The notes beneath the pieces are model-generated. The model searched no databases, was not told the DNA's origin, and was given only the letters and a program-made list of their open reading frames with translations. From Candidatus Heimdallarchaeota archaeon (GTDB taxonomy: Archaea > Asgardarchaeota > Heimdallarchaeia > Hodarchaeales > Hodarchaeaceae), in the NCBI GenBank assembly GCA_020353515.1, contig CP070695.1, positions 737,065-801,064 of the forward strand: 64,000 bases of DNA, read 5' to 3'. Within the stretch, counting starts at the first letter, position 1, and every line of letters begins with the position of its first letter. Positions 1-9,374 of this stretch are shown here, piece after piece. Both the position numbers and the translations under genes were made by a program.

Positions 1-188
1 ATTGAAAGCGACATTTGGAACTCTTTTTTTTTAATAGTCAAATACTATACCTCACGGAAAATAAAAAATTGAAAATTACCTTATCCAAGGATCTTATTCT
101 GAATGACAATCTTCTCTTTAATAAAAAAACTAGTCTTATCCAACAATTTGGTAATGTTTATATAGATGTTCCTCCATATATTATTTGA

Positions 189-596
189 GTGAACATCATG
201 TCATTAAAAGACCACAAGTTTATGATGTTAATGAGCCAAGAAGAAAAGGCTCATTATGAGAAAATTAGGGAGGCTCACGGTTTTACAAGCCTCGCTAAAT
301 TAATTCGAGCGTCTTTGGATATTGTACAAAGATTTCCTGAATTATTAGAGCCAACAGAGAGAGTCAATGGTAGTGGCACACAACAAGTTCTAGAGGCCAT
401 TCAAAGATTAGAACAGAAAGAATTAGCTGTTGAAAAAATGGGTGAAATCCTAAAAACCCAAGCTGAAAAAATAAACAAAATCGAGAGATTACTTGAATCA
501 TTTGCCTTAAAGAAGGGAATGACCAAAAAGGAGATTAAACGAGCCTACAAGAAAGACCTGTCAGGTGAGGCGGTATTTGAGGAGGATGAAGATTGA
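189..596 (+). CDS. Putative CopG/ribbon-helix-helix DNA-binding protein with C-terminal coiled coil
   Basis: N-terminal FMMLMSQEEKAHYEKIREAHGFTSLAKLIRASL fits a strand-helix-helix pattern; heptad-rich C-terminus; 4-nt overlap with the recombinase start (translational coupling). Confidence 0.55.
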   Translation: MNIMSLKDHKFMMLMSQEEKAHYEKIREAHGFTSLAKLIRASLDIVQRFPELLEPTERVNGSGTQQVLEAIQRLEQKELAVEKMGEILKTQAEKINKIERLLESFALKKGMTKKEIKRAYKKDLSGEAVFEEDED

Positions 597-1465
597 ATTA
601 CCCCAAACCTGAATATTTTGACGAATTCGCAATGTGGTTAAGGACTCAAGGAAAATCAGAGAATACAGTTAATACATATCTTTCAGGACTAAGACAAATC
701 CCTGAAGATGTTGAAACTTTTTTCGCCAACCCTCATTTAACAGGCCAAAGAAGCAAATTCGCGGCCTATCGGTCTTATCTTCGATTCTTAGCAAAGAAAA
801 AGAAGGTTTTTGATAGAGGCGACTTAATTGACGCTCTTGATTCTCTCAAACCGAGAAAAAAACGAGGAAATAGTAGTAGTGTCAAGAGATGGGCTATTCC
901 CAGAAAAGAATGGGAAGGTTTTATACGGAGAGCCCATTCCAAAGTCACCAAAATGGGACTTTGGCTTGGTTTTCACTTTGGGCTAAGACTCTCCGAGATA
1001 TTACATCTACGCGTCAAGGATATAGACTTTTCGAAACAAGAGATTAACATTCAAATTCATAAAAAAACCAAGAATCAAGAAGCTTGGTGGCCTAAAGCCA
1101 ACCGAGAGCGTCAAATTCCATTTACAAAATCTCAGGGTGAAACTCTCAAGCGTTGGATTGAGCAAAGACCAAAAGAACTAAAACATCCTTATTTACTTTG
1201 GACTAGAGGGAATCAACAACATAGAAAATTCAAACCTTTACATCCAAAGACCTTTCAGTATTGGATTAGGAAGATTCATCCTAAGCTAAAATGTCATGTC
1301 TTAAGATATTCATTCGCGACGCATTATTACAATCAATCCAAAGATATTAAGCTCATTAGTAATCTCTTAGGTCATGCGAATGTAGCGACGACTAGCGAAT
1401 ATCTAGCACTAGGTCATGAAGAAACAATGAGTAAAGGGCGCGCTCTTTTTGCTGAAGGGGAATAA
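593..1465 (+). CDS. Tyrosine recombinase/integrase (XerC/D-XerA family)
   Basis: N-terminal core-binding motif (FAMWLRTQGKSENTVNTY) and full catalytic set: R in GLRLSE, K in PKANRER, HxLR in HVLRYSF, H in LLGH, Y in SEYL. Confidence 0.95.
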   Translation: MNYPKPEYFDEFAMWLRTQGKSENTVNTYLSGLRQIPEDVETFFANPHLTGQRSKFAAYRSYLRFLAKKKKVFDRGDLIDALDSLKPRKKRGNSSSVKRWAIPRKEWEGFIRRAHSKVTKMGLWLGFHFGLRLSEILHLRVKDIDFSKQEINIQIHKKTKNQEAWWPKANRERQIPFTKSQGETLKRWIEQRPKELKHPYLLWTRGNQQHRKFKPLHPKTFQYWIRKIHPKLKCHVLRYSFATHYYNQSKDIKLISNLLGHANVATTSEYLALGHEETMSKGRALFAEGE

Positions 1466-1496
1466 TTTTTTTTCTTCACTTCCCTCCCCTTTTTTC
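1466..1496 (+). terminator. Pyrimidine/oligo-T archaeal terminator after the recombinase
   Basis: ttttttttcttcacttccctcccctttttttc directly follows the stop codon. Confidence 0.5.
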
Positions 1497-1579
1497 AAGT
1501 CATGAGATAAAAGGTTGACAAGAAAGTTTAAAAGAATAAAAAAAAGAGAAAACTCGTATCAATTCAGGGAGTATCCAAC

Positions 1580-1747
1580 ATGAGTGAAGAACAAGAGCAA
1601 GTCCAAGTACAGAAGAAAAGAAAATCCACTAAAACAGAAAAAGCATGGTATGTTATCATATTTGCTTCTTTTATCAGTGCAGTGATTTATTTGATTTATT
1701 TACCCATTAGAGCTGCAGGTTTTCTCTTATCATTGATTAAGGATTAA
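1580..1747 (+). CDS. 55-aa putative membrane micro-protein (not in ORF track)
   Basis: ATG at 1580 after GGGAG; MSEEQEQVQVQKKRKSTKTEKAWYVIIFASFISAVIYLIYLPIRAAGFLLSLIKD*; charged N-terminus then a hydrophobic helix. Confidence 0.55.
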   Translation: MSEEQEQVQVQKKRKSTKTEKAWYVIIFASFISAVIYLIYLPIRAAGFLLSLIKD

Positions 1748-1750
1748 TTT

Positions 1751-1778
1751 GATAGACATAACTCAAATTATGTTAAGT
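1751..1778. other. dif-like Xer recombination site (11-6-11)
   Basis: GATAGACATAA-CTCAAA-TTATGTTAAGT; right arm 10/11 to the E. coli XerD arm TTATGTTAAAT, left arm 7/11 to the XerC arm GGTGCGCATAA; ~290 bp downstream of a Xer-type recombinase. Confidence 0.7.
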
Positions 1779-1822
1779 TATACGTATCAATATACGTATT
1801 TTTGATAACCTATCCAACGCTA
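1778..1822 (+). repeat. 45-bp direct repeat, copy 1 (left of beta-helix gene)
   Basis: ttatacgtatcaatatacgtatttttgataacctatccaacgcta; 41/45 identical to 4330-4374; contains the inverted repeat tacgtat-caat-atacgta. Confidence 0.9.
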
Positions 1823-1935
1823 TCTATAATTTTTATATAAAAACAAGTTTAATCTAAAAGAGTCCATTAAAAGAGTTTATTGGAACTACTAGGATTGAGA
1901 AATTTGTTATTAACCGTTAAAAAGCGAAAACGCTT

Positions 1936-4128
1936 CTAGGCTAGTTTCGACCGTGATTTCTTCCATGATCGAATTATGACTAACGAGAGAAGAACCAACA
2001 GAGTCGTCCAACCAGATGCAGGTTTCTTTGACGTTGACTGGAGTATTGGATCTGGGGAGGTCAATGGTGATTCATCTTGATTATTGGCTGTTCCGTCTAG
2101 CGTGTAGGGTTCATCGACGATTCCATCCCCATTGGTATCTGGACTGGTCCACTCACTCCAATAGTTGTTGGCAAAGACGTTCTCTGAGCCATCATCTGTT
2201 GCTTGGACTCCTCCATCATTATTTCCTGTGAAGACATTGTATTCCACAGTATTCGCTTGCGATTTTGCAGACATGATTACTCCATAGCCTGCAGTGTTGC
2301 GGATCGTATTGTAGGAGATTGTATTGTTGGTTGAGAATCTTTCCCCCCCCTGCCATATATCGATTCCAACTCCGTACTCCCCTCCATTTTGGATGGTATT
2401 ATTGAAGATTTGATTATCTGAGGCCTCATTAAGTGTCATGCCATACGTATTGCCTTCGAGTGTATTGCCAGTAATATTTGTATTTTGTGCCCATCCAAGA
2501 TAAAATCCATAGAAATTATTATTGATGCTATTATGGGCAATGGTATTTTTTTCGCCTCCGAGGGAAATTGCTGCTCCATACGCAGTGTTGGAAATTATAT
2601 TATCTGTGATTCTATTCTTGTTGGAGTTATCGCTCACCCTTATCGCATCCCAATTATAGTTATCTAGCGTATTATTAACGATGCTGCTGCTAGAGGAATT
2701 ATAGATTAATATCCCTACAACTCCATCGGACAGGGTATTCTCTGAGATTAGAACGTTTGAGCTATAAGCGACTGTTATTCCGGTTGAGGCATATTCAATA
2801 TTTTGGTCTTTTATGATTATTGAATGGCAGTTGAGCAGAATTATTTGTCCAATATCAGAGGGAACTGTTTTATCATTAACATCCTGCCAGTAGAGTATTG
2901 GTTTTCCGTTTACATTATTATTTGTTATTTCAACTTGCAAAAAATCCTCATATTGATAGCCCCAAAGTCCGAGGCCGTCGTTGACAAAATTATTATCAAT
3001 AATTCTGTTATTCCCTGATTCCCAAAAGAGAAGTCCCCATCCACTGTTGTGTGAGATGGTATTGTTCACAAAGGTTCCATCAAAGCAGTTTGAATCTGCA
3101 CTGTTGATACCGTCCCTTTTATTTCCATGGACAAAATTATCGGAGATGGTATTTACCGGAGATTCCAGGAGCTGAACTCCTGTCCTTGAGTTCTGCTCGA
3201 CTTCATTATTGGTGATCGTGTTCTGGGCTGAGGTTTGCAGGTTTATTCCGTTCTGTGAGTTATGGGAGACAATATTGCTAGTAATAACATTTCTGGTAGA
3301 GTTCTCTAAATAAATACCATTAGCCCCATTGTTATCAATCTCATTGTTTTCTATTGTGTTAGTTTCCGACCCTGTCAGATAAATACCATTGTTCCCATTA
3401 TCTGTGATTGTATTATCGTGAATAGTATTGTTTTCCGACATTTTCACGTAGATTCCATAAGAAGGATTATGATGAACAGTGTTATTGGCAATTATATTAT
3501 TGTCCGACGAAAATGAAATTGCAATCCCCTCGAAGTTGTTGGTCACGATATTATGGGAAACAATGTTATTATCTGATGAGTCTAGCAGTAATCCATCTTG
3601 CGTGTGATTTTTCACAATATTTCTCGAAATGAGATTATTCTTAGATTCACGAATTGTTAATCCGTTATAACAGGTGTTATTCAATATCTCATTATCATTG
3701 GAAGAAACCAGAAGTATTCCATTAAAAGTGTTAATGACCGTGTTGTTTTCCACAATTCCGTTTTTCACGTTCCAGAGAGAAATTCCCCGATCTGCACTTG
3801 CTAGACCATTCAGGAGACAATTAGCAATACGAAAATAAAAGGTCGTGTCATGAATAGAGATCATATCTCCACTTGGAGCGGTAATATTATAGCCCTCAAT
3901 CCGAATCGGATTATCCATCGTGCCTTTTCCAGGGAACGAATTGTTCAGGTCATTGTCATTCGTGATATAAATGGGACTTCTGGGTATATAGGTCTGAACC
4001 CTAGAAACCCGTGACTCACTTGAAAACTCAGTTCTCTTTGTTGAATGTGCTTCTTGTTTGCCTCCCCAGATATTCACTCCGAATAACAGGATACAAATCA
4101 GTATTATGCAGATCCTTTTTTTCACCAT
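1936..4128 (-). CDS. Secreted right-handed parallel beta-helix (NosD/pectin-lyase-like) surface protein with C-terminal membrane anchor
   Basis: N-terminal signal peptide; many GIxL..S.NN.I..N repeats; NYWSEW..D.NGDGIVD.PY cap motif; Ser/Thr/Pro linker followed by SGW-TM helix-basic tail (PGF-CTERM-like). Confidence 0.9.
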   Translation of the reverse strand: MVKKRICIILICILLFGVNIWGGKQEAHSTKRTEFSSESRVSRVQTYIPRSPIYITNDNDLNNSFPGKGTMDNPIRIEGYNITAPSGDMISIHDTTFYFRIANCLLNGLASADRGISLWNVKNGIVENNTVINTFNGILLVSSNDNEILNNTCYNGLTIRESKNNLISRNIVKNHTQDGLLLDSSDNNIVSHNIVTNNFEGIAISFSSDNNIIANNTVHHNPSYGIYVKMSENNTIHDNTITDNGNNGIYLTGSETNTIENNEIDNNGANGIYLENSTRNVITSNIVSHNSQNGINLQTSAQNTITNNEVEQNSRTGVQLLESPVNTISDNFVHGNKRDGINSADSNCFDGTFVNNTISHNSGWGLLFWESGNNRIIDNNFVNDGLGLWGYQYEDFLQVEITNNNVNGKPILYWQDVNDKTVPSDIGQIILLNCHSIIIKDQNIEYASTGITVAYSSNVLISENTLSDGVVGILIYNSSSSSIVNNTLDNYNWDAIRVSDNSNKNRITDNIISNTAYGAAISLGGEKNTIAHNSINNNFYGFYLGWAQNTNITGNTLEGNTYGMTLNEASDNQIFNNTIQNGGEYGVGIDIWQGGERFSTNNTISYNTIRNTAGYGVIMSAKSQANTVEYNVFTGNNDGGVQATDDGSENVFANNYWSEWTSPDTNGDGIVDEPYTLDGTANNQDESPLTSPDPILQSTSKKPASGWTTLLVLLSLVIIRSWKKSRSKLA

Positions 4129-4329
4129 TTTCTTTTCCCCTGTGAAATTTTACTCTAGTAAGACGATATTCTTTATAAAGTTATCACCTCATTTGAAATT
4201 CAATTCAAAGTCCGCGTATATGCGATAAAAAATGTGTGATTTGAAGATTTTATTGATCTAATCAATGTTAAGTTAAGAATTATATAACGTTTTATAAAAA
4301 AACATTAACCTATCCAACGTTATAGTACA

Positions 4330-4374
4330 TTATACGTATCAATATACGTATTTTTGGTAACATTTCCAACGTTA
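4330..4374 (+). repeat. 45-bp direct repeat, copy 2 (right of beta-helix gene)
   Basis: ttatacgtatcaatatacgtatttttggtaacatttccaacgtta; an extra copy of the taacctatccaacgtta submotif lies at 4306-4322. Confidence 0.9.
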
Positions 4375-4630
4375 AACGACAAATTCAAGTACTTACAAAA
4401 CAAAGTTTCTCGAAAGCCAGCTTTAACAATTATAATATGTGTTTGAAGACATCCTAACAGAATTCTAATAGCTGATGGATAAAAATCTATAGATAATAAA
4501 AAGATCATAATCTGCGTTTTACGAATTTTAGGATAACAATAATGAAGAACCATGAGAATGTTTTGGTGGACTTTTAATTAGAGTAAAAGAGTAAAAACAA
4601 AGCGTGAAATTTGTTTTCAATCTTGATCTG

Positions 4631-4777
4631 ATGGTTGAAGAAAATAAACAATGGAACGACTTGTTTAACAAGCAATTAGCAGAATATAAAGATGGTAAAT
4701 TGGATTCTGAAGTTTTTGAGGTACGAATTAAGAGATATAAGACCTTCTTATTACGAAAGAAGAATTTATTATCTTAG
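4631..4777 (+). CDS. 48-aa SHOCT-like micro-protein (not in ORF track)
   Basis: MVEENKQWNDLFNKQLAEYKDGKLDSEVFEVRIKRYKTFLLRKKNLLS*; YKDGKLDSEVFE resembles the SHOCT core G.IS.EEF; alternative GTG start at 4604. Confidence 0.45.
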   Translation: MVEENKQWNDLFNKQLAEYKDGKLDSEVFEVRIKRYKTFLLRKKNLLS

Positions 4778-4796
4778 TTCCTTTTTCTTCATTTTG

Positions 4797-5489
4797 CTAA
4801 TCTTGTATCTGTTCGATCTTAATAGTTCTAGCATCTATTTCGGAATTTGTATAATCCACATTAATCCTTTCTGGAGGGTAATATGTACGGATGATTAAAT
4901 CTTCTGTTTCAATGTTTAAATTCTTGACATGAAAATCTCGCTTCAATTGTGTTTTTTTACCAAGTTTCTTGAGTATCATATCAGGGAGTAATAATAATTT
5001 AGAAAAGGAGCCCGTGAAGGATATAATCACATTCGGAGCATGAATTATCCCAGATATATTTGTTTCTGACCTTTTTGGATTTATAGCTATATCTATTGAT
5101 TCCGTTGCAGTTATATCTTTCTGAATTGAAACTTTTCCTCTAATCTTTATTAAATCACCTTTTAGTTGTGTGCCTTTTATTATTGACCCCCTAAGAAAGA
5201 TTTTCTTGCCTATTATATCCCCATTCACTTTACAATCTCCATTTACAACTATATCTTGAGCTGAAATAAGATTATGTCCAATAACCAAAGTAGAGTTTGC
5301 AATTATCGATCCTTGCTTTGATTCTAGATTTTTTGCTATGGTTAATTCCTCATCTGACTTGATTGAATATGCAGTTAGGTTTCCCATGGCATTAATTGTT
5401 CCAGTTATATGTACATCGTCTTTGAATTCAATATCATCATTAAATGTTTTGGAATGTATTTCAATCACTAAATCATCTTCTATTAGCAA
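4797..5489 (-). CDS. Bactofilin-like / polymer-forming beta-solenoid protein
   Basis: Repeated hydrophobic-x-hydrophobic-x-G strands (VHITGTI, IVVNGDCKVNGDI, IKIRGKV). Confidence 0.65.
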   Translation of the reverse strand: MLIEDDLVIEIHSKTFNDDIEFKDDVHITGTINAMGNLTAYSIKSDEELTIAKNLESKQGSIIANSTLVIGHNLISAQDIVVNGDCKVNGDIIGKKIFLRGSIIKGTQLKGDLIKIRGKVSIQKDITATESIDIAINPKRSETNISGIIHAPNVIISFTGSFSKLLLLPDMILKKLGKKTQLKRDFHVKNLNIETEDLIIRTYYPPERINVDYTNSEIDARTIKIEQIQD

Positions 5490-5502
5490 TTAAAGGGCTA
5501 GT

Positions 5503-5784
5503 TTATATTGAAAGATAATCTTTACGAAGTAATTCCATTATCTTGTGCTTCCTCTCTGGGTTTTTATTCCACCTTTTTGCAGCAGTAAGTGTGAATCCTG
5601 ATTTTTTATATACTCTAATAGCAGCTGGGTTACTTTCATTTGGAGGTACAACAAGTAATCGGTAGTCGGTATTAGAAAAGATATGTTGAATGACTTTTTT
5701 CATTCCATCGGTACCTAATCCTTGGTTCCAATAATCTGGTAAGATTTTTATATCTGTCATAAAAGTTTTCGTACCTTTCTCCAT
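5503..5784 (-). pseudogene. N-terminally truncated GNAT (RimJ/RimL-like) acetyltransferase
   Basis: Motif A (DYWNQGLGT) and motif B (N.AAIRVYKKSGF) present; the N-terminal half is missing, with in-frame TAG TAA directly before the ATG. Confidence 0.6.
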
Positions 5785-5828
5785 TTACTAAATTTGAGCT
5801 CTTGTACATCCAATAGAAGGTTACAAAT

Positions 5829-6731
5829 ATGCGAAAAATCCCTTTTATTCAAACAAGTGTGTTCACAGATGATCGTTATCAATTCTCAGGCAATCAACTA
5901 GCAACATTCTGGAAATTGTCAGAAGATGAGCTGTCTCCAGATGAGATGCAAGGAATTACTAGAGAAATGAATTTTTCGGAAACAACATTCGTTCTCTCCT
6001 CCAAGGATGATAAATGTGTCCGAAAGGTTCGGATTTTCACCCCAGGTCGGGAAATCCCTTTTGCTGGTCATCCAACGCTAGGTACAGCTTTTGTGTTAAG
6101 AAATCAAGGAATCATTGGTATGAAAGACACAAGAGCTTATTTGGAATTAGGACTCGGCCCAATAGCTGTTGAATTTCAAGATAATCTCGTCAGAATGTAT
6201 CAATCTAAGCCTGAATTTCTCACAAAATTCCAAGATAGAAAAGCCTTGGCAATGATTATGGGGATTTCACCTGACTCAATCATGCATAACTACCCAATAC
6301 AATTTGTTTCAACTGGATTTCCATTCCTAATTGTACCTCTTACTTCCTTAGAAGCTATTCAGGCCATAAATCTAGATATTAAGCTGTTATTCAAGACATT
6401 GGAAGGGTTTCCCTCTCAAGAATTATTAGTTTTTACACCTAACACAGCTTATTCTGATTCCCATGTGCATGTGAGAATGTTTGCCCCTTCTGCAGGAGTT
6501 CCAGAAGATCCTGCCACGGGAAGTGCCGCAGGGCCATTAGGAGGATATTTAGAAGAATATCAGGTTTTATCTAATCATTCTAGAGGGACACCGTATGTTT
6601 TAGAACAAGGATATGAAATGAACAGACCAAGTAAATTGATTGTCCAATGTTCTCATGATAAAAACGAAATTACTGAAGTGATTGTTGGTGGCGAAGTAAA
6701 GATAACAGCTGAAGGACAGTTCTTCCTTTAG
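5829..6731 (+). CDS. PhzF family isomerase
   Basis: GNQLA, EMNFSET, RIFTP.REIPFAGHPTLG, RMFAP..GVPEDPATGSA, EQGYEM.RPS. Confidence 0.95.
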   Translation: MRKIPFIQTSVFTDDRYQFSGNQLATFWKLSEDELSPDEMQGITREMNFSETTFVLSSKDDKCVRKVRIFTPGREIPFAGHPTLGTAFVLRNQGIIGMKDTRAYLELGLGPIAVEFQDNLVRMYQSKPEFLTKFQDRKALAMIMGISPDSIMHNYPIQFVSTGFPFLIVPLTSLEAIQAINLDIKLLFKTLEGFPSQELLVFTPNTAYSDSHVHVRMFAPSAGVPEDPATGSAAGPLGGYLEEYQVLSNHSRGTPYVLEQGYEMNRPSKLIVQCSHDKNEITEVIVGGEVKITAEGQFFL

Positions 6732-8077
6732 GATCGATCAATCACGGCTTGCAGGAGATTCAACAAGTCCTCCACATCTTCTTTGCTAACGAATCTGTCC
6801 TGTGAACGATGGAGCATAGCATTTCTCCGTAATCGTATTCTCTTTAGATCTTTGTTTTCTCTTGTCATGAGTAATTGTTCACGTAGTAATGCATTAACAA
6901 TGGACGGCCAGGATTGGTCATCTGTCGGATAGGCATTTCGTTTCCAAAGGACGTGTCGAAACAAAGTTTCTGTTGATCTCCATAAGAACAGAAAGGTTGA
7001 GATATGCTCATCCGTCGACAATTCCTCCCACTTTTCAAGCTTTTTTGTGGCATAGAACACATCCAGCTTTAAAGATTCAGCTTCTTCTTCAGAGGATCCA
7101 AGTTCTTCAATGGCATCTGTTACTGAATGGCCAAGGAAGAACTGCATTTCGAGTTCTCTTCGTTTCTCTTTTGAGAGATCAAGATTATTTAACATTGATG
7201 AGTATTGTTCGAGTACCAAAGTTCGGGCAACTTCTCTTCGCGTGTAATCCCGTAATTCGTCATTAATATGTGTCTCAATAAAATCAAAGTATATTTTTGA
7301 TACAAGATCCCAGTTGGCAGCTAATTTTGTCCCTATTTTGTCAGCAAGGGGGAACCTTCTAATGGAATCTAACTCGACTTGTCTAGTTTTGACCTTAAGA
7401 TCCTGATCCAGTGCAGGTAAGGATAAATTGTAACTGGTTTTGCAAATCAACGTTGCTAGATTTTTTCGTGAGTGAAGAAAAAGTATCAAGGATAGTATCA
7501 CAAGAGTGCTAAAGAGAGTTCCAAAAAAGACCACATTAATTGGATTAATAATCTGGTCAATATAGAGAAAATCCAAGTTTATTGATTTAAAATGCAGATA
7601 GATAATCGTTACGACATTTACTACATTAATTAATCCATAGCATATTGAAAAAAGGAACAGGGTTTCTCTAAAAGTCAACATTTTCTCATCGGAAATTGTA
7701 TCGTCCCTGGTAAAGTAGGAATCGATGTATCCTCTCCGAAAGAGGGTTCTTAGCTTTGGAAGTAACTCATTTTGAATATTTTTCTGCAGTTCATTTTTTG
7801 TTTTCGTATCTAAGTCAATTCTTTTCAATAAAAAGATTTGATTGATGTTCTGTCTTAAAGATTCGGAATATCTTTCAGCAGCTCTACTAATTCTCACTAT
7901 TAAATATGGACTATAGATGTAGAATATATACGCTGGAAAGATCAAGAGGATTGTGGGAAGGAGGAGAAAGAGCTCGAACTTATCTGTCATAAAGAAGAGA
8001 TAAGCTCCAATTAAACCGATTTCATATAGTAATGGAAAAAGAACTCCCAAAACAAATCTATTTTCTCGTAATGTCAT
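6728..8077 (-). CDS. Multi-pass membrane protein with C-terminal HEPN-like domain
   Basis: Four hydrophobic segments in the N-terminal half; C-terminal helical domain with ETLFRH... and RNAMLH (Rx4H) followed by a VSKEDVE helix. Confidence 0.65.
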   Translation of the reverse strand: MTLRENRFVLGVLFPLLYEIGLIGAYLFFMTDKFELFLLLPTILLIFPAYIFYIYSPYLIVRISRAAERYSESLRQNINQIFLLKRIDLDTKTKNELQKNIQNELLPKLRTLFRRGYIDSYFTRDDTISDEKMLTFRETLFLFSICYGLINVVNVVTIIYLHFKSINLDFLYIDQIINPINVVFFGTLFSTLVILSLILFLHSRKNLATLICKTSYNLSLPALDQDLKVKTRQVELDSIRRFPLADKIGTKLAANWDLVSKIYFDFIETHINDELRDYTRREVARTLVLEQYSSMLNNLDLSKEKRRELEMQFFLGHSVTDAIEELGSSEEEAESLKLDVFYATKKLEKWEELSTDEHISTFLFLWRSTETLFRHVLWKRNAYPTDDQSWPSIVNALLREQLLMTRENKDLKRIRLRRNAMLHRSQDRFVSKEDVEDLLNLLQAVIDRS

Positions 8078-8612
8078 TCTGAATTAGCGTCTTTCATTAT
8101 ACTCTTTACATTTTCTCTCTGTTATTGATTGTGTTTCTATTTCAGAAAAATTTTGTTTAAAATATTTAAAAGGATACAACACAGTGTAGAAACTCCTGAT
8201 TGGAAAACATTTGATTAAAACTTCTGTAATCCAGTTTCAATCATAATTTCTTACTAATCTCATCGGTAAGAAGAAAAAGAAGTAGACCAACTGGTATAAA
8301 GTAGATGAGTAATCTAATTATTTTGTACTATTTTGGGCGATAGATTTCCCCTTATTTCCCTCATTCTTTAAGTGATGTTTGGTTTAAATGGTCTTAAGAT
8401 TATTTAACAATATTGTACTATACTTTGGAAGATTTTTTTGTGATTCAGCGGGTTAAATCAGGAAAAAATCAATGAAATAGTTTTTGTCAAACTGAAAATG
8501 AGTGAAAGTCGACTGGACTCAGAAATTTTTATCCCAGCTACTTTTGGTCAACCTCAATATGATTGAGCTACCAAGCGTTATCGTGAAACGTAGATGGAGT
8601 GCGATGCCAAGA

Positions 8613-8631
8613 GTAGAGTAAAGTTTATAAA
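8613..8631 (+). promoter_or_regulatory. BRE/TATA promoter of histone gene 1
   Basis: gtagagtaaagtttataaa; 18/19 identical to 9291-9309. Confidence 0.8.
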
Positions 8632-8654
8632 CTAGGGGATTTTCCGTAATACCA

Positions 8655-8676
8655 GTGAGGTGAAATAAAACCTCAC
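8655..8676 (+). promoter_or_regulatory. Inverted repeat at predicted TSS of histone gene 1
   Basis: gtgaggt-gaaataaa-acctcac, starting 31 nt after the first T of the TATA box. Confidence 0.7.
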
Positions 8677-8709
8677 ATTCGTTAACATTGAGAAAAGGTG
8701 AAAATAAAA

Positions 8710-8910
8710 ATGGGGTTTGCAAGAGCACGCGTCGAGAAGCTCATTAGAACTGCAGGCGCACACCGTGTGTCCGCGGAAGCGATTGATCGCCTAAATGAAG
8801 TTCTCACGAATTATGGCACTAACATTGCCAAATATGCTGTCGAGATTGCTCGTCACTCTGGTCGTAAGACAGTAAAAGAGTCCGACATTAAATTGGCAGC
8901 AACAAAGTAA
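8710..8910 (+). CDS. Archaeal histone (HMf-type), 66 aa
   Basis: Histone-fold motifs AGAHRVS and HSGRKTVKESDI; the ORF-track GTG at 8698 lies within the SD (aggtga), so ATG 8710 is the likely start. Confidence 0.97.
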   Translation: MGFARARVEKLIRTAGAHRVSAEAIDRLNEVLTNYGTNIAKYAVEIARHSGRKTVKESDIKLAATK

Positions 8911-8961
8911 GGTACCATTAGTCATCATTTACGGTACCCTTTCTTTTTCCCCCTTTTTTTT
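8911..8961 (+). terminator. Histone 1 3' hairpin plus T5C5T8 tract
   Basis: ggtacc...ggtacc inverted repeat followed by ctttttccccctttttttt. Confidence 0.6.
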
Positions 8962-9290
8962 GAATATCAATGTTTCTAATCTTTTCATTATTGTTTGAGT
9001 TGGTTCCCTATATGTTGTTTAAGGTTCAATTAAAGGGAGTAAACCAACCTATTTTTTTCATTTCTTATACTAAAATTAAATTTCGAGCTTTTCATTTGCT
9101 TTTAATGAGAAATTTTGAGAATTAGAGGTATTAAATACTGAATTAAGACTTTTGGGAAGAAGAGGCTTTTTTCCTCTTATCTTTAATCTTATTTCTTCTT
9201 CGCTTTTTATTCGCGCTTCTAAGACATCTACCATGATATGCCTTACCATACGTGATTTAAAGTAAGAAATACGCGGAAAAAACGACCGTG

Positions 9291-9309
9291 GTAGAGTAAG
9301 GTTTATAAA
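9291..9309 (+). promoter_or_regulatory. BRE/TATA promoter of histone gene 2
   Basis: gtagagtaaggtttataaa. Confidence 0.8.
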
Positions 9310-9333
9310 GGGGCAAAATTTCTGCTAATGTGT

Positions 9334-9354
9334 GTGAGTTGGGATAAAACTCAC
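9334..9354 (+). promoter_or_regulatory. Inverted repeat at predicted TSS of histone gene 2
   Basis: gtgagtt-gggataa-aactcac, starting 32 nt after the first T of the TATA box. Confidence 0.7.
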
Positions 9355-9374
9355 GAGAAAAGGTGAAACAAAAA

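What the first reader, a model, noticed from the sequence alone, without database searches (positions are those of the whole stretch)
1751..4377. Candidate recombinase-driven cassette system: one surface-protein gene between two composite sites with permuted modules
Seen: both flanks of the beta-helix gene use the same four short modules in different order. X = atgttaagtta; Y = tacgtatcaatatacgtatttttg (palindromic core); Z = taacctatccaacg(t/c)ta; W = a tataa..ttttata.aaaaaca AT palindrome. Left flank: X(1770-1780), Y(1781-1804), Z(1806-1822), W(1825-1845). Right flank: X(4265-4275), W'(4283-4304), Z(4306-4322), Y(4333-4356), Z'(4358-4374). The three Z-terminated units each start at gtta and end at taac...ccaac, so Z acts like a repeat separating exchangeable palindromic spacers, and Y and W swap places. 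The left X is the right arm of a dif-like site, and an intact tyrosine recombinase lies ~0.3 kb upstream. Inference: simple duplication does not give this permutation. It suggests recombination at the aac|gtta junctions, i.e. an integron-analogous platform run by a non-IntI Xer-type enzyme that captures or swaps surface-protein genes, or composite attL/attR sites with accessory binding sites.
Basis: partly seen in the sequence, partly recalled or inferred. Interest (0 to 1): 0.82.

Follow-up and report, generated by a model that had tools for sequence, protein, structure and literature searches.

The report
Asgard gene cassettes with own recombinase
The short repeats on both sides of this surface-protein gene are the joints of a row of swappable gene packets found only in one genus of Asgard archaea. 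This stretch also carries an intact recombinase gene sitting at such a joint, which makes it a candidate for the enzyme that moves the packets.

Summary
No permutation is needed to explain them. Both flanks follow one grammar: a recombination-type site (left arm TAACMTAT, core CCAACG, weak right arm), preceded 14 nt upstream by two 8-bp palindromic boxes at 12-bp pitch. The boxes are either Y (ATACGTAT twice) or W' (TTATATAA-type).

The same sites occur in 13 of 22 genomes of this Hodarchaeales-type genus. They are low-copy, almost always point the same way within a locus, and bracket unrelated cargo. Apart from one weak match, I did not find them in other Asgard genera sampled.

- **Movement at the core:** a 1,744-nt block is 99.4% identical between two species and starts and ends exactly at ACCAACG. 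A second species pair shares a flank that begins right after CCAACG.
- **Window layout:** cassettes lie at 146-1819 (RHH-like gene plus Xer-like integrase), 1820-4319 (beta-helix gene) and 4320-4371 (empty unit), and a last one starts at 4372.
- **Link to the integrase:** all five in-genus copies of this integrase family lie beside a core. Catalysis is not shown, and host XerA remains a rival.

Earlier notes of this scan describe the same system on other DNA as integrase-less. I found no paper describing it.

The parts
83..145 (+). Two decayed site cores (CCAAGG 85-90, CCAACA 140-145) about 55 nt apart, with an A-rich W'-like filler between them. These are remnant cassette ends at the very start of the contig.
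   Evidence: The filler plus core matches W'-type ends in G011 loci. The window starts at a contig start.
157..164 (+). TATA-like box (TTTATATA) 11 nt after the decayed core and about 25 nt before the RHH-like gene. Probable promoter of the RHH-integrase operon.
   Evidence: Sequence. The same core-then-TATA layout recurs at seven loci. Promoter function is inferred.
189..596 (+). orf135: small protein with a strand-helix-helix N-terminus and a long helix, RHH-like. Its stop overlaps the integrase start by 4 nt.
   Evidence: No Pfam or NCBIfam hit. It is conserved upstream of every integrase homologue. AlphaFold model: pLDDT 69, helices 17-30, 35-48 and 63-108. The top Foldseek rows are RHH proteins, but all have E>1.
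593..1465 (+). Intact Xer-like tyrosine recombinase (290 aa).
   Evidence: PF00589, E=2e-24. XerA_Arch model 99.8 bits against a cut-off of 220; integron-integrase model 69.5 against 265. Nearest solved structure is P. abyssi XerA-like 4a8e. The R..HxxR..H..Y residues are conserved in the alignment.
1556..1580 (+). Possible further decayed Y-type end (half box CGTATCAAT plus ATCCAACA) that overlaps the start of orf55.
   Evidence: Sequence only. Weak.
1580..1747 (+). orf55, a small hydrophobic ORF of unknown standing.
   Evidence: no family hit.
1751..1780 (+). Decayed left site plus spacer of unit U1.
   Evidence: Ungapped alignment to canonical units, 17 of 30. Homologous to G015:C31 from position 1759 on.
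1780..1799 (+). Y box pair: ATACGTAT twice at 12-bp pitch.
   Evidence: Nearly invariant in 15 units from 7 genomes.
1806..1822 (+). Z site, core CCAACG at 1814-1819. Joint between the integrase cassette and the beta-helix cassette.
1825..1845 (+). W: AT-rich TATA-like element that follows a core at a fixed distance. It starts the next cassette.
   Evidence: The same arrangement occurs in G015:C31, G018:C64 and G000 at 235929, 1994008 and 3089558.
1936..4128 (-). Cargo: 730-aa right-handed beta-helix (NosD-type) protein.
   Evidence: PF13229 at 2.5e-68 and PF05048 at 2.2e-67. Paralogues lie next to such sites in G015 and G020.
4255..4275 (+). X on the right flank: a variant site with core TCAATG (4262-4267), which is CCAATG in other species.
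   Evidence: Alignment of six copies of the X-W'-Z module.
4280..4299 (+). W' box pair: TTATATAA, 4 nt, TTATAAAA, at 12-bp pitch.
4306..4322 (+). Z site, core 4314-4319. End of the beta-helix cassette.
4320..4371 (+). 52-nt 'empty' canonical unit: right arm and spacer, Y boxes 4332-4351, left arm, core 4366-4371.
   Evidence: R1 score 75 bits. 97% identical to G017:C343 and 94% to G000 3074466.
4372..4452 (+). V module: a conserved cassette start found after cores elsewhere.
   Evidence: 79-87% identical copies in G000 (3077673), G015:C7, G018:C53, G007, G005 and G011.
4453..5807 (.). Rest of the last cassette: orf57, a bactofilin-like gene and a 5'-truncated GNAT gene. DNA synteny with relatives starts at 5808.

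Best explanation
Window 1 to about 5800 is part of a same-direction row of gene cassettes joined at a Xer/dif-style recombination site.

**Site and cassette structure.** Each cassette ends with two 8-bp palindromic boxes (Y or W' type; other loci use a GACTTCA hairpin). Fourteen nt later come the left arm TAACMTAT and the 6-bp core CCAACG. The next cassette begins right after the core. The beta-helix gene is one such cassette (1820-4319). Its left neighbour (146-1819) carries an RHH-like gene and a Xer-like tyrosine recombinase.

**Shown.** The sites are conserved, low-copy, co-oriented and confined to this genus among those sampled. DNA blocks are exchanged between genomic contexts with break points inside the core.

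**Inferred.**
- A tyrosine recombinase exchanges strands across CCAACG, so that cassettes are cut out as circles and re-inserted at any other core.
- The cassette-borne integrase is the catalyst.
- The RHH-like protein binds the box pairs as an accessory or directionality factor.
For: - **Conservation:** the Y core occurs in 7 genomes of the genus, the backwards control gives 0, and units align at 82% mean column identity. A model of the unit finds it in 13 of 22 genomes, 1-9 copies each. Among 151 Asgard genomes sampled, one weak match (E=1e-5) was the only one outside the genus.
- **Co-orientation:** 20 of 21 within-locus comparisons agree.
- **Movement, case 1:** L014 2526-4269 equals G015:C7 at 99.4% over 1,744 nt, whereas core genes of the two species are about 75% identical. 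The block starts at ACCAACG and ends at AACCAACG, and the flanks differ on both sides.
- **Movement, case 2:** G000 and G003 share the toxin-antitoxin flank from the base after CCAACG and differ upstream of it.
- **Cargo differs between like sites:** TrmB plus an ABC-2 transporter, MscS channels, PadR plus RDD, and others.
- **Sites lie near assembly breaks:**
- **Integrase link:** all 4 intact copies and 1 remnant of this integrase family in the genus lie within about 100 nt of a core. Four housekeeping Xer-like genes checked do not.
- **Parallel case:** a metagenomic relative (L095) has the RHH-integrase pair followed by 43-nt direct repeats around 2.08 kb.
Against: - No reads could be laid, so no circle or empty-site junction was seen for the window's own cassettes.
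- Five unit-bearing genomes show no accessory integrase, and presence of integrase and of units is not significantly correlated (8/3/5/6 table). The MAGs are incomplete.
- Seven metagenomic homologues of the integrase (40-54% identity) have no Z or Y sites.
- The right arm of the site is weakly conserved and arm symmetry is limited to positions 2-3.
- One break point lies inside the Y boxes, not at a core.
- G000 and G015 are MAGs with 5-7% contamination, so the 99.4% block could reflect shuffling within one population rather than transfer between species. It would still be shuffling at the core.
Confidence: 0.6

Rival explanations
1. The cassettes are moved by the housekeeping XerA-like recombinase, as pdif modules and IMEX elements use host XerC/D. 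The window's RHH-integrase pair is then only cargo, or an unrelated small integrative element that landed in the array.
For: Every genome of the genus has one Xer-like gene at 26-29% identity. Units occur in five genomes with no accessory integrase found. The site has arm-6 bp-arm geometry. Earlier scan notes on other arrays report no integrase nearby.
Against: Five of five in-genus copies of this integrase family touch a core, which a passenger gene need not do. The chromosomal dif of this genus is unknown, so likeness of Z to dif is untested. MAG incompleteness weakens 'no integrase found'.
Confidence: 0.25
2. These are ordinary integrative elements stacked at one attachment site (attL/attR with tandem accretion, as with cis-mobilizable elements next to ICEs). 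The integrase element lies on the left and the beta-helix segment is an integrase-less hitchhiker.
For: Direct repeats of 55 nt flank the gene, with an integrase 0.3 kb away. In G018:C56 two units 19 kb apart enclose an RHH-integrase pair.
Against: Rows of at least 7 small blocks (0.05-5.5 kb) lack element backbone genes. There is no tRNA or gene-end target. 52-nt 'empty' units occur. The shared identity at a joint is only 7-8 nt.
Confidence: 0.1
3. The motifs are regulatory or terminator-promoter modules (operator box, hairpin plus T-run, TATA box) with no role in recombination. The synteny breaks beside them are coincidental.
For: W and W' look like archaeal TATA boxes. The box pairs are followed by T-runs. 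The core-then-TATA layout precedes the integrase operon and some other genes.
Against: Two independent block boundaries fall exactly at the core. Site direction is constant whatever the direction of the genes. Sites are enriched at contig ends. A regulatory role may well coexist with recombination.
Confidence: 0.05

Closest known systems
Integrons and integrase-less attC clusters, including those reported in Asgard MAGs (Ghaly et al. 2022, PMC9668308)
   Same: Same-direction rows of gene cassettes, each ending in a partly palindromic site. The crossover falls at a short conserved core next to a GTT-type triplet. Cassettes are shared between species. A tyrosine recombinase gene lies beside the array.
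   Different: The recombinase lacks the IntI signature. The sites are sequence-conserved, duplex-type sites and not structure-defined attC hairpins with R''/R' ends. Cassettes reach 5.5 kb, hold several genes in either direction, and seem to bring their own TATA-like elements. The integrase itself sits inside a cassette.
pdif (dif) modules of Acinetobacter plasmids moved by XerC/XerD (PMC6449649, PMC13141974)
   Same: Modules of accessory genes are bounded by about 28-bp sites with two arms and a 6-bp spacer. Exchange needs matching spacers. 'Empty' modules occur.
   Different: pdif sites alternate in direction (C and D modules), whereas these all point one way. pdif modules lie on bacterial plasmids and use host Xer. 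Here the context is an archaeal chromosome-type contig with a dedicated Xer-like gene and box-pair accessory sequences.
Tandem accretion of integrative elements and cis-mobilizable elements at one att site (my own knowledge: ICESt1/ICESt3 of Streptococcus thermophilus)
   Same: Integrase-less segments flanked by the same att repeats sit next to an integrase-bearing one.
   Different: There are many very small segments, no element backbone genes and no gene-end target. The identity at the joints is only 7-8 nt.
Archaeal XerA/dif chromosome-dimer resolution
   Same: The recombinase is nearest to XerA models and to the P. abyssi XerA-like structure.
   Different: It scores far below the XerA cut-off. 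It is sporadic in the genus, and a separate housekeeping Xer-like gene exists in each genome. There are many sites per genome rather than one.

Membership tests
Integron | IntI-type integrase with the IntI-specific extra domain | tested here: not met
   TIGR02249 scores 69.5 bits against a cut-off of 265, in two short stretches. PRK15417 scores 37 against 435. The protein is only 290 aa.
Integron | attC sites: structure-conserved, sequence-variable imperfect palindromes with R''...R' ends | tested here: not met
   The sites are sequence-conserved (left arm plus CCAACG). The AAC and GTT halves are adjacent and do not flank the palindrome.
Integron | Same-direction array of cassettes separated by recombination sites | tested here: met
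   Window, L014 (at least 7 cores on one strand) and G015:C7. 20 of 21 orientation comparisons agree.
Integron | Cassettes move as units with boundaries at the site core | tested here: met
   A 99.4% identical block is bounded by ACCAACG in two contexts. The G000/G003 flank break lies right after the core. This is comparative evidence only, with no junction reads.
pdif / dif modules | 28-bp site: two 11-bp recombinase-binding arms around a 6-bp spacer | tested here: inconclusive
   The left arm and 6-bp core are conserved. The right arm is conserved only at +2/+3 and partly as TTAwAnGACAT. Arm symmetry is limited to positions 2-3.
pdif / dif modules | Neighbouring sites alternate in orientation (C and D modules) | tested here: not met
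   The sites are co-oriented. The pdif rule is taken from PMC13141974.
pdif / dif modules | Recombination by the host's housekeeping Xer enzymes | not testable with these tools
   A housekeeping Xer-like gene exists (G000 2222658-2223443).
Integrated element with attL/attR | Integrase inside a segment flanked by direct repeats of the att core | tested here: inconclusive
   The integrase lies between a decayed core (140-145) and the core at 1814-1819, but the contig ends 145 nt to the left.
Integrated element with attL/attR | Target in a tRNA gene or at a gene end | tested here: not met
   No tRNA in the window. No Rfam family in 1-9000.
XerA (archaeal dimer resolution) | Equivalog-level match and one conserved copy per genome | tested here: not met
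   NF040815 scores 99.8 bits against a cut-off of 220. Close homologues occur in only 3 genomes, plus fragments in 3 more.

The most novel reading that the evidence does not exclude
The RHH-integrase pair is itself a mobile cassette that supplies, in trans, the recombinase for all Z-site arrays of a cell. The 8-bp box pairs (Y, W') would be the RHH protein's binding sites and would set direction or timing. This would be a self-propagating, integron-like gene-capture system built from Xer-type parts, private to one genus of the archaea closest to eukaryotes.
Probability: 0.3. Interest if true: 0.9.

Novelty: new variant of a known kind. Interest (0 to 1): 0.78.

Why it matters
Integron-type gene capture is known from bacteria, and classical integrons have been reported in archaeal MAGs. 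I found no paper describing a second, independently built cassette system in Hodarchaeales-type Asgard archaea. Such a system would explain how these genomes shuffle accessory genes (surface proteins, transporters, regulators) within and between species.

Earlier notes of this scan found the arrays but no enzyme. This window offers a concrete pair of proteins and defined DNA sites. That makes the mechanism testable in vitro without having to grow the organism.

Tried and rejected
- **Exact-protein look-up:**
  - The integrase is not on record.
  - The beta-helix protein is on one 2,356-nt Logan contig covering about window 1897-4252, with no DNA given.
- **tRNA and Rfam:** nothing.
- **IMG/VR scan for the Y core:** no hit, so there is no sign of a viral attP.
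- **BIME/REP-like high-copy mosaic repeat:** rejected. A Z-box matrix is barely enriched over the backwards control genome-wide (17 against 9 at the strict threshold), so the sites are low-copy.
- **Aloposons (PMC8813620):** these are tRNA-targeting elements with giant genes, not comparable.
- **Assembly-graph overlaps:** the window's contig start overlaps no other contig of the bin.
- **Metagenomic integrase homologues:** 7 loci, none with Z or Y sites. Only L095 shows an analogous repeat pair.
- **Second integrase family (G018:C56 type):** only 1 of 7 copies lies next to a core.
- **Foldseek on the orf135 model:** no significant match.
- **Syntenic PhzF regions of relatives:** no sites there.
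- **ABC-transporter block of L014:** it is shared at 85-92% with six genomes, but its boundaries are not clean at cores.
Full report
**Observation.**
- The 24-nt Y occurs exactly twice in 64 kb, against none in 100 shuffles.
- Z occurs three times, against 0.28 expected.
- X alone is at chance level.
- The repeat finder describes the whole more simply as three copies of a 52-55-nt unit, at 1768-1822, 4268-4322 and 4320-4374.

**Source.**
- The genome is a MAG whose contigs are joined by 100 N. The window begins exactly at a contig start, so whatever lay left of the integrase operon is lost.
- Record titles of related contigs name Hodarchaeota, 'Hermodarchaeota' or Promethearchaeota MAGs, so this is an Asgard genus of the Hodarchaeales type.

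**The motifs are a genus-wide family.**
- The Y core occurs at three other places in this genome.
- It also occurs in six other species of the genus. The backwards control gives none, and the two other genera of the order have none.
- In all GTDB species genomes, 8 of 17 exact hits are Asgard. The rest are at the level I estimate for chance, about 9.
- IMG/VR has none.
- Fifteen copies align without gaps into a roughly 70-nt unit: site, spacer, Y, site. Mean column identity is 82%.
- A sequence model of that unit finds 1-9 copies in 13 of 22 genomes of the genus.
- Among 151 Asgard genomes sampled across the phylum, one weak match was the only one outside the genus.
- A matrix for the Z box alone is hardly enriched genome-wide. 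The sites are therefore low-copy, which rules out a REP/BIME-like repeat.

**Grammar of the sites.** I collected 51 sites from the window and 23 loci.
- The left arm TAACMTAT and the core CCAACG are strongly conserved. Part of this comes from how the sites were found.
- To the right, only +2/+3 (TA) are conserved, plus TTAwAnGACAT in about 40% of sites.
- The DNA just left of each site comes in a few types, each an inverted repeat followed by a T- or A-run:
  - Y: ATACGTAT twice.
  - W': TTATATAA then TTATAAAA.
  - A GACTTCA hairpin in L014.
  - A further type in G003 and G015.
- In the window, Y and W' have the same 12-bp pitch and the same 14-nt distance to the core.
- X on the right flank is itself a variant site, with core TCAATG here and CCAATG in other species.
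- The left X together with the 'dif-like' 28-mer is a decayed site plus spacer.
- Both flanks therefore obey one rule, and no permutation has to be explained.

**Evidence that DNA is exchanged at the core.** The other G000 contig with units (L014, 18.7 kb) is a mosaic.
- Positions 2526-4269, carrying a PadR and an RDD gene, are 99.4% identical to G015:C7. Core genes of the two species are about 75% identical.
- Read in site orientation, the shared block begins at ACCAACG and ends at AACCAACG. The DNA outside differs on both sides in both genomes.
- A 63-nt hairpin-plus-site module recurs in direct orientation at L014 993, 2526 and 4263, and at least seven cores lie on one strand.
- At the end of that array, G000 and G003 share the toxin-antitoxin flank at 87% from the base after CCAACG, but have different cassette ends upstream.
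- G015:C31 and C52, which are paralogous beta-helix loci, diverge right after a core.
- G021:C89 holds a 2,991-nt block twice in tandem, joined at a core.
- Within loci, 20 of 21 orientation comparisons agree.
- Six of seven unit hits in G000 lie within 4.4 kb of a contig end. One site forms a 99-nt assembly-graph joint.
- Cargo between like sites is unrelated from locus to locus:
  - beta-helix proteins;
  - TrmB plus an ABC-2 transporter;
  - MscS channels;
  - aldo-keto reductases;
  - LTD, CARDB and PKD surface proteins;
  - TPR proteins and a histidine kinase.

**Reading of the window.**
- Decayed cores at 85-90 and 140-145 are followed by a TATA-like box.
- The first cassette (146-1819) holds orf135, the integrase and orf55, and ends in a Y-type end.
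- The second (1820-4319) starts with W, holds the beta-helix gene in reverse, and ends in a W'-type end.
- A 52-nt empty unit follows (4320-4371).
- A last cassette starts with the widespread V module and runs to about 5800, holding a truncated GNAT gene.
- DNA synteny with relatives begins at 5808.

**The recombinase.**
- The 290-aa protein has the tyrosine-recombinase domain and catalytic residues.
- It is nearest to XerA models but far below their cut-off, and it is not an integron integrase.
- Every genome of the genus has a separate Xer-like gene at 26-29% identity, presumably the housekeeping one.
- Close homologues of the window's enzyme are sporadic: G017 and G015 (three copies), plus fragments in G002, G003, G011 and L014.
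- Each intact copy follows a homologue of orf135 with overlapping stop and start.
- All four intact copies and the L014 remnant lie within about 100 nt of a core, in either orientation.
- Four housekeeping Xer-like genes and six of seven genes of a second accessory family show no site within 3 kb.
- orf135 models as strand-helix-helix plus a long helix. The best fold matches are RHH DNA-binding proteins, but none is significant.
- A metagenomic relative (L095, 54% identity) shows the same layout with unrelated repeats: the RHH-integrase pair, then 43-nt direct repeats around 2.08 kb.

**What weakens the enzyme link.**
- Five unit-bearing genomes show no accessory integrase.
- Seven metagenomic homologues lack these sites.
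- I could get no reads.
- I therefore rate the cassette-and-joint reading at about 0.8, and the claim that this integrase drives it at about 0.4.

**Comparison with known systems.**
- The system works like an integron but fails two defining tests, the IntI signature and attC structure.
- It resembles pdif modules in site geometry but not in site orientation or setting.
- Aloposons are unrelated.
- I found no paper on such arrays in Hodarchaeales.

**Earlier scan notes.** Earlier AI notes of this scan describe the same system on other DNA, including L014, and call it integrase-less. I re-derived the L014 result independently before reading them. What this window adds is the candidate enzyme pair and the box-pair rule.

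Noticed in passing
window 8613-9374: A roughly 220-nt stretch (8690-8910) matches dozens of places in every genome of the genus at 70-80% identity.
   Followed up: no
L016 = G000:C1:266719-276510: This 9.8-kb contig is flanked by inverted copies of a site core followed by a roughly 240-nt conserved module. Both ends are 99-nt assembly-graph joints. It may be an invertible segment.
   Followed up: partly
L037 = G021:C89 194-6181: A 2,991-nt block with two MscS-like genes is present twice in tandem. The copies are 100% identical except for the first 65 nt or so (91%), and they are joined at a site core. This is either tandem insertion of a circle or the assembler looping through a circular form.
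   Followed up: partly
window 6070-6080: The 11-mer ATCCAACGCTA, identical to the left-flank core plus 3 nt, lies inside the PhzF-like gene (family D5). It may be chance or a pseudo-site.
   Followed up: no
window 5503-5784 (-): The GNAT acetyltransferase ORF covers only the C-terminal half of the domain. It is a truncated gene at the edge of the variable region.
   Followed up: no
L053 = G011:C83 952-1062: A 111-nt remnant of the 3' end of the integrase gene, 95% identical to the window's copy, ends exactly at the stop codon.
   Followed up: partly
L095 = SDBT01002901.1, 6932-9057 in locus coordinates: A 54%-identical RHH-integrase pair is followed by 43-nt direct repeats (91% identical) enclosing 2.08 kb. 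A 13-nt box (TTGTAGTGCCTAA) is repeated four times nearby. This may be a sister system with other site sequences.
   Followed up: partly
window 6728-8077 (-): A 449-aa ORF has no Pfam hit. Not examined here.
   Followed up: no
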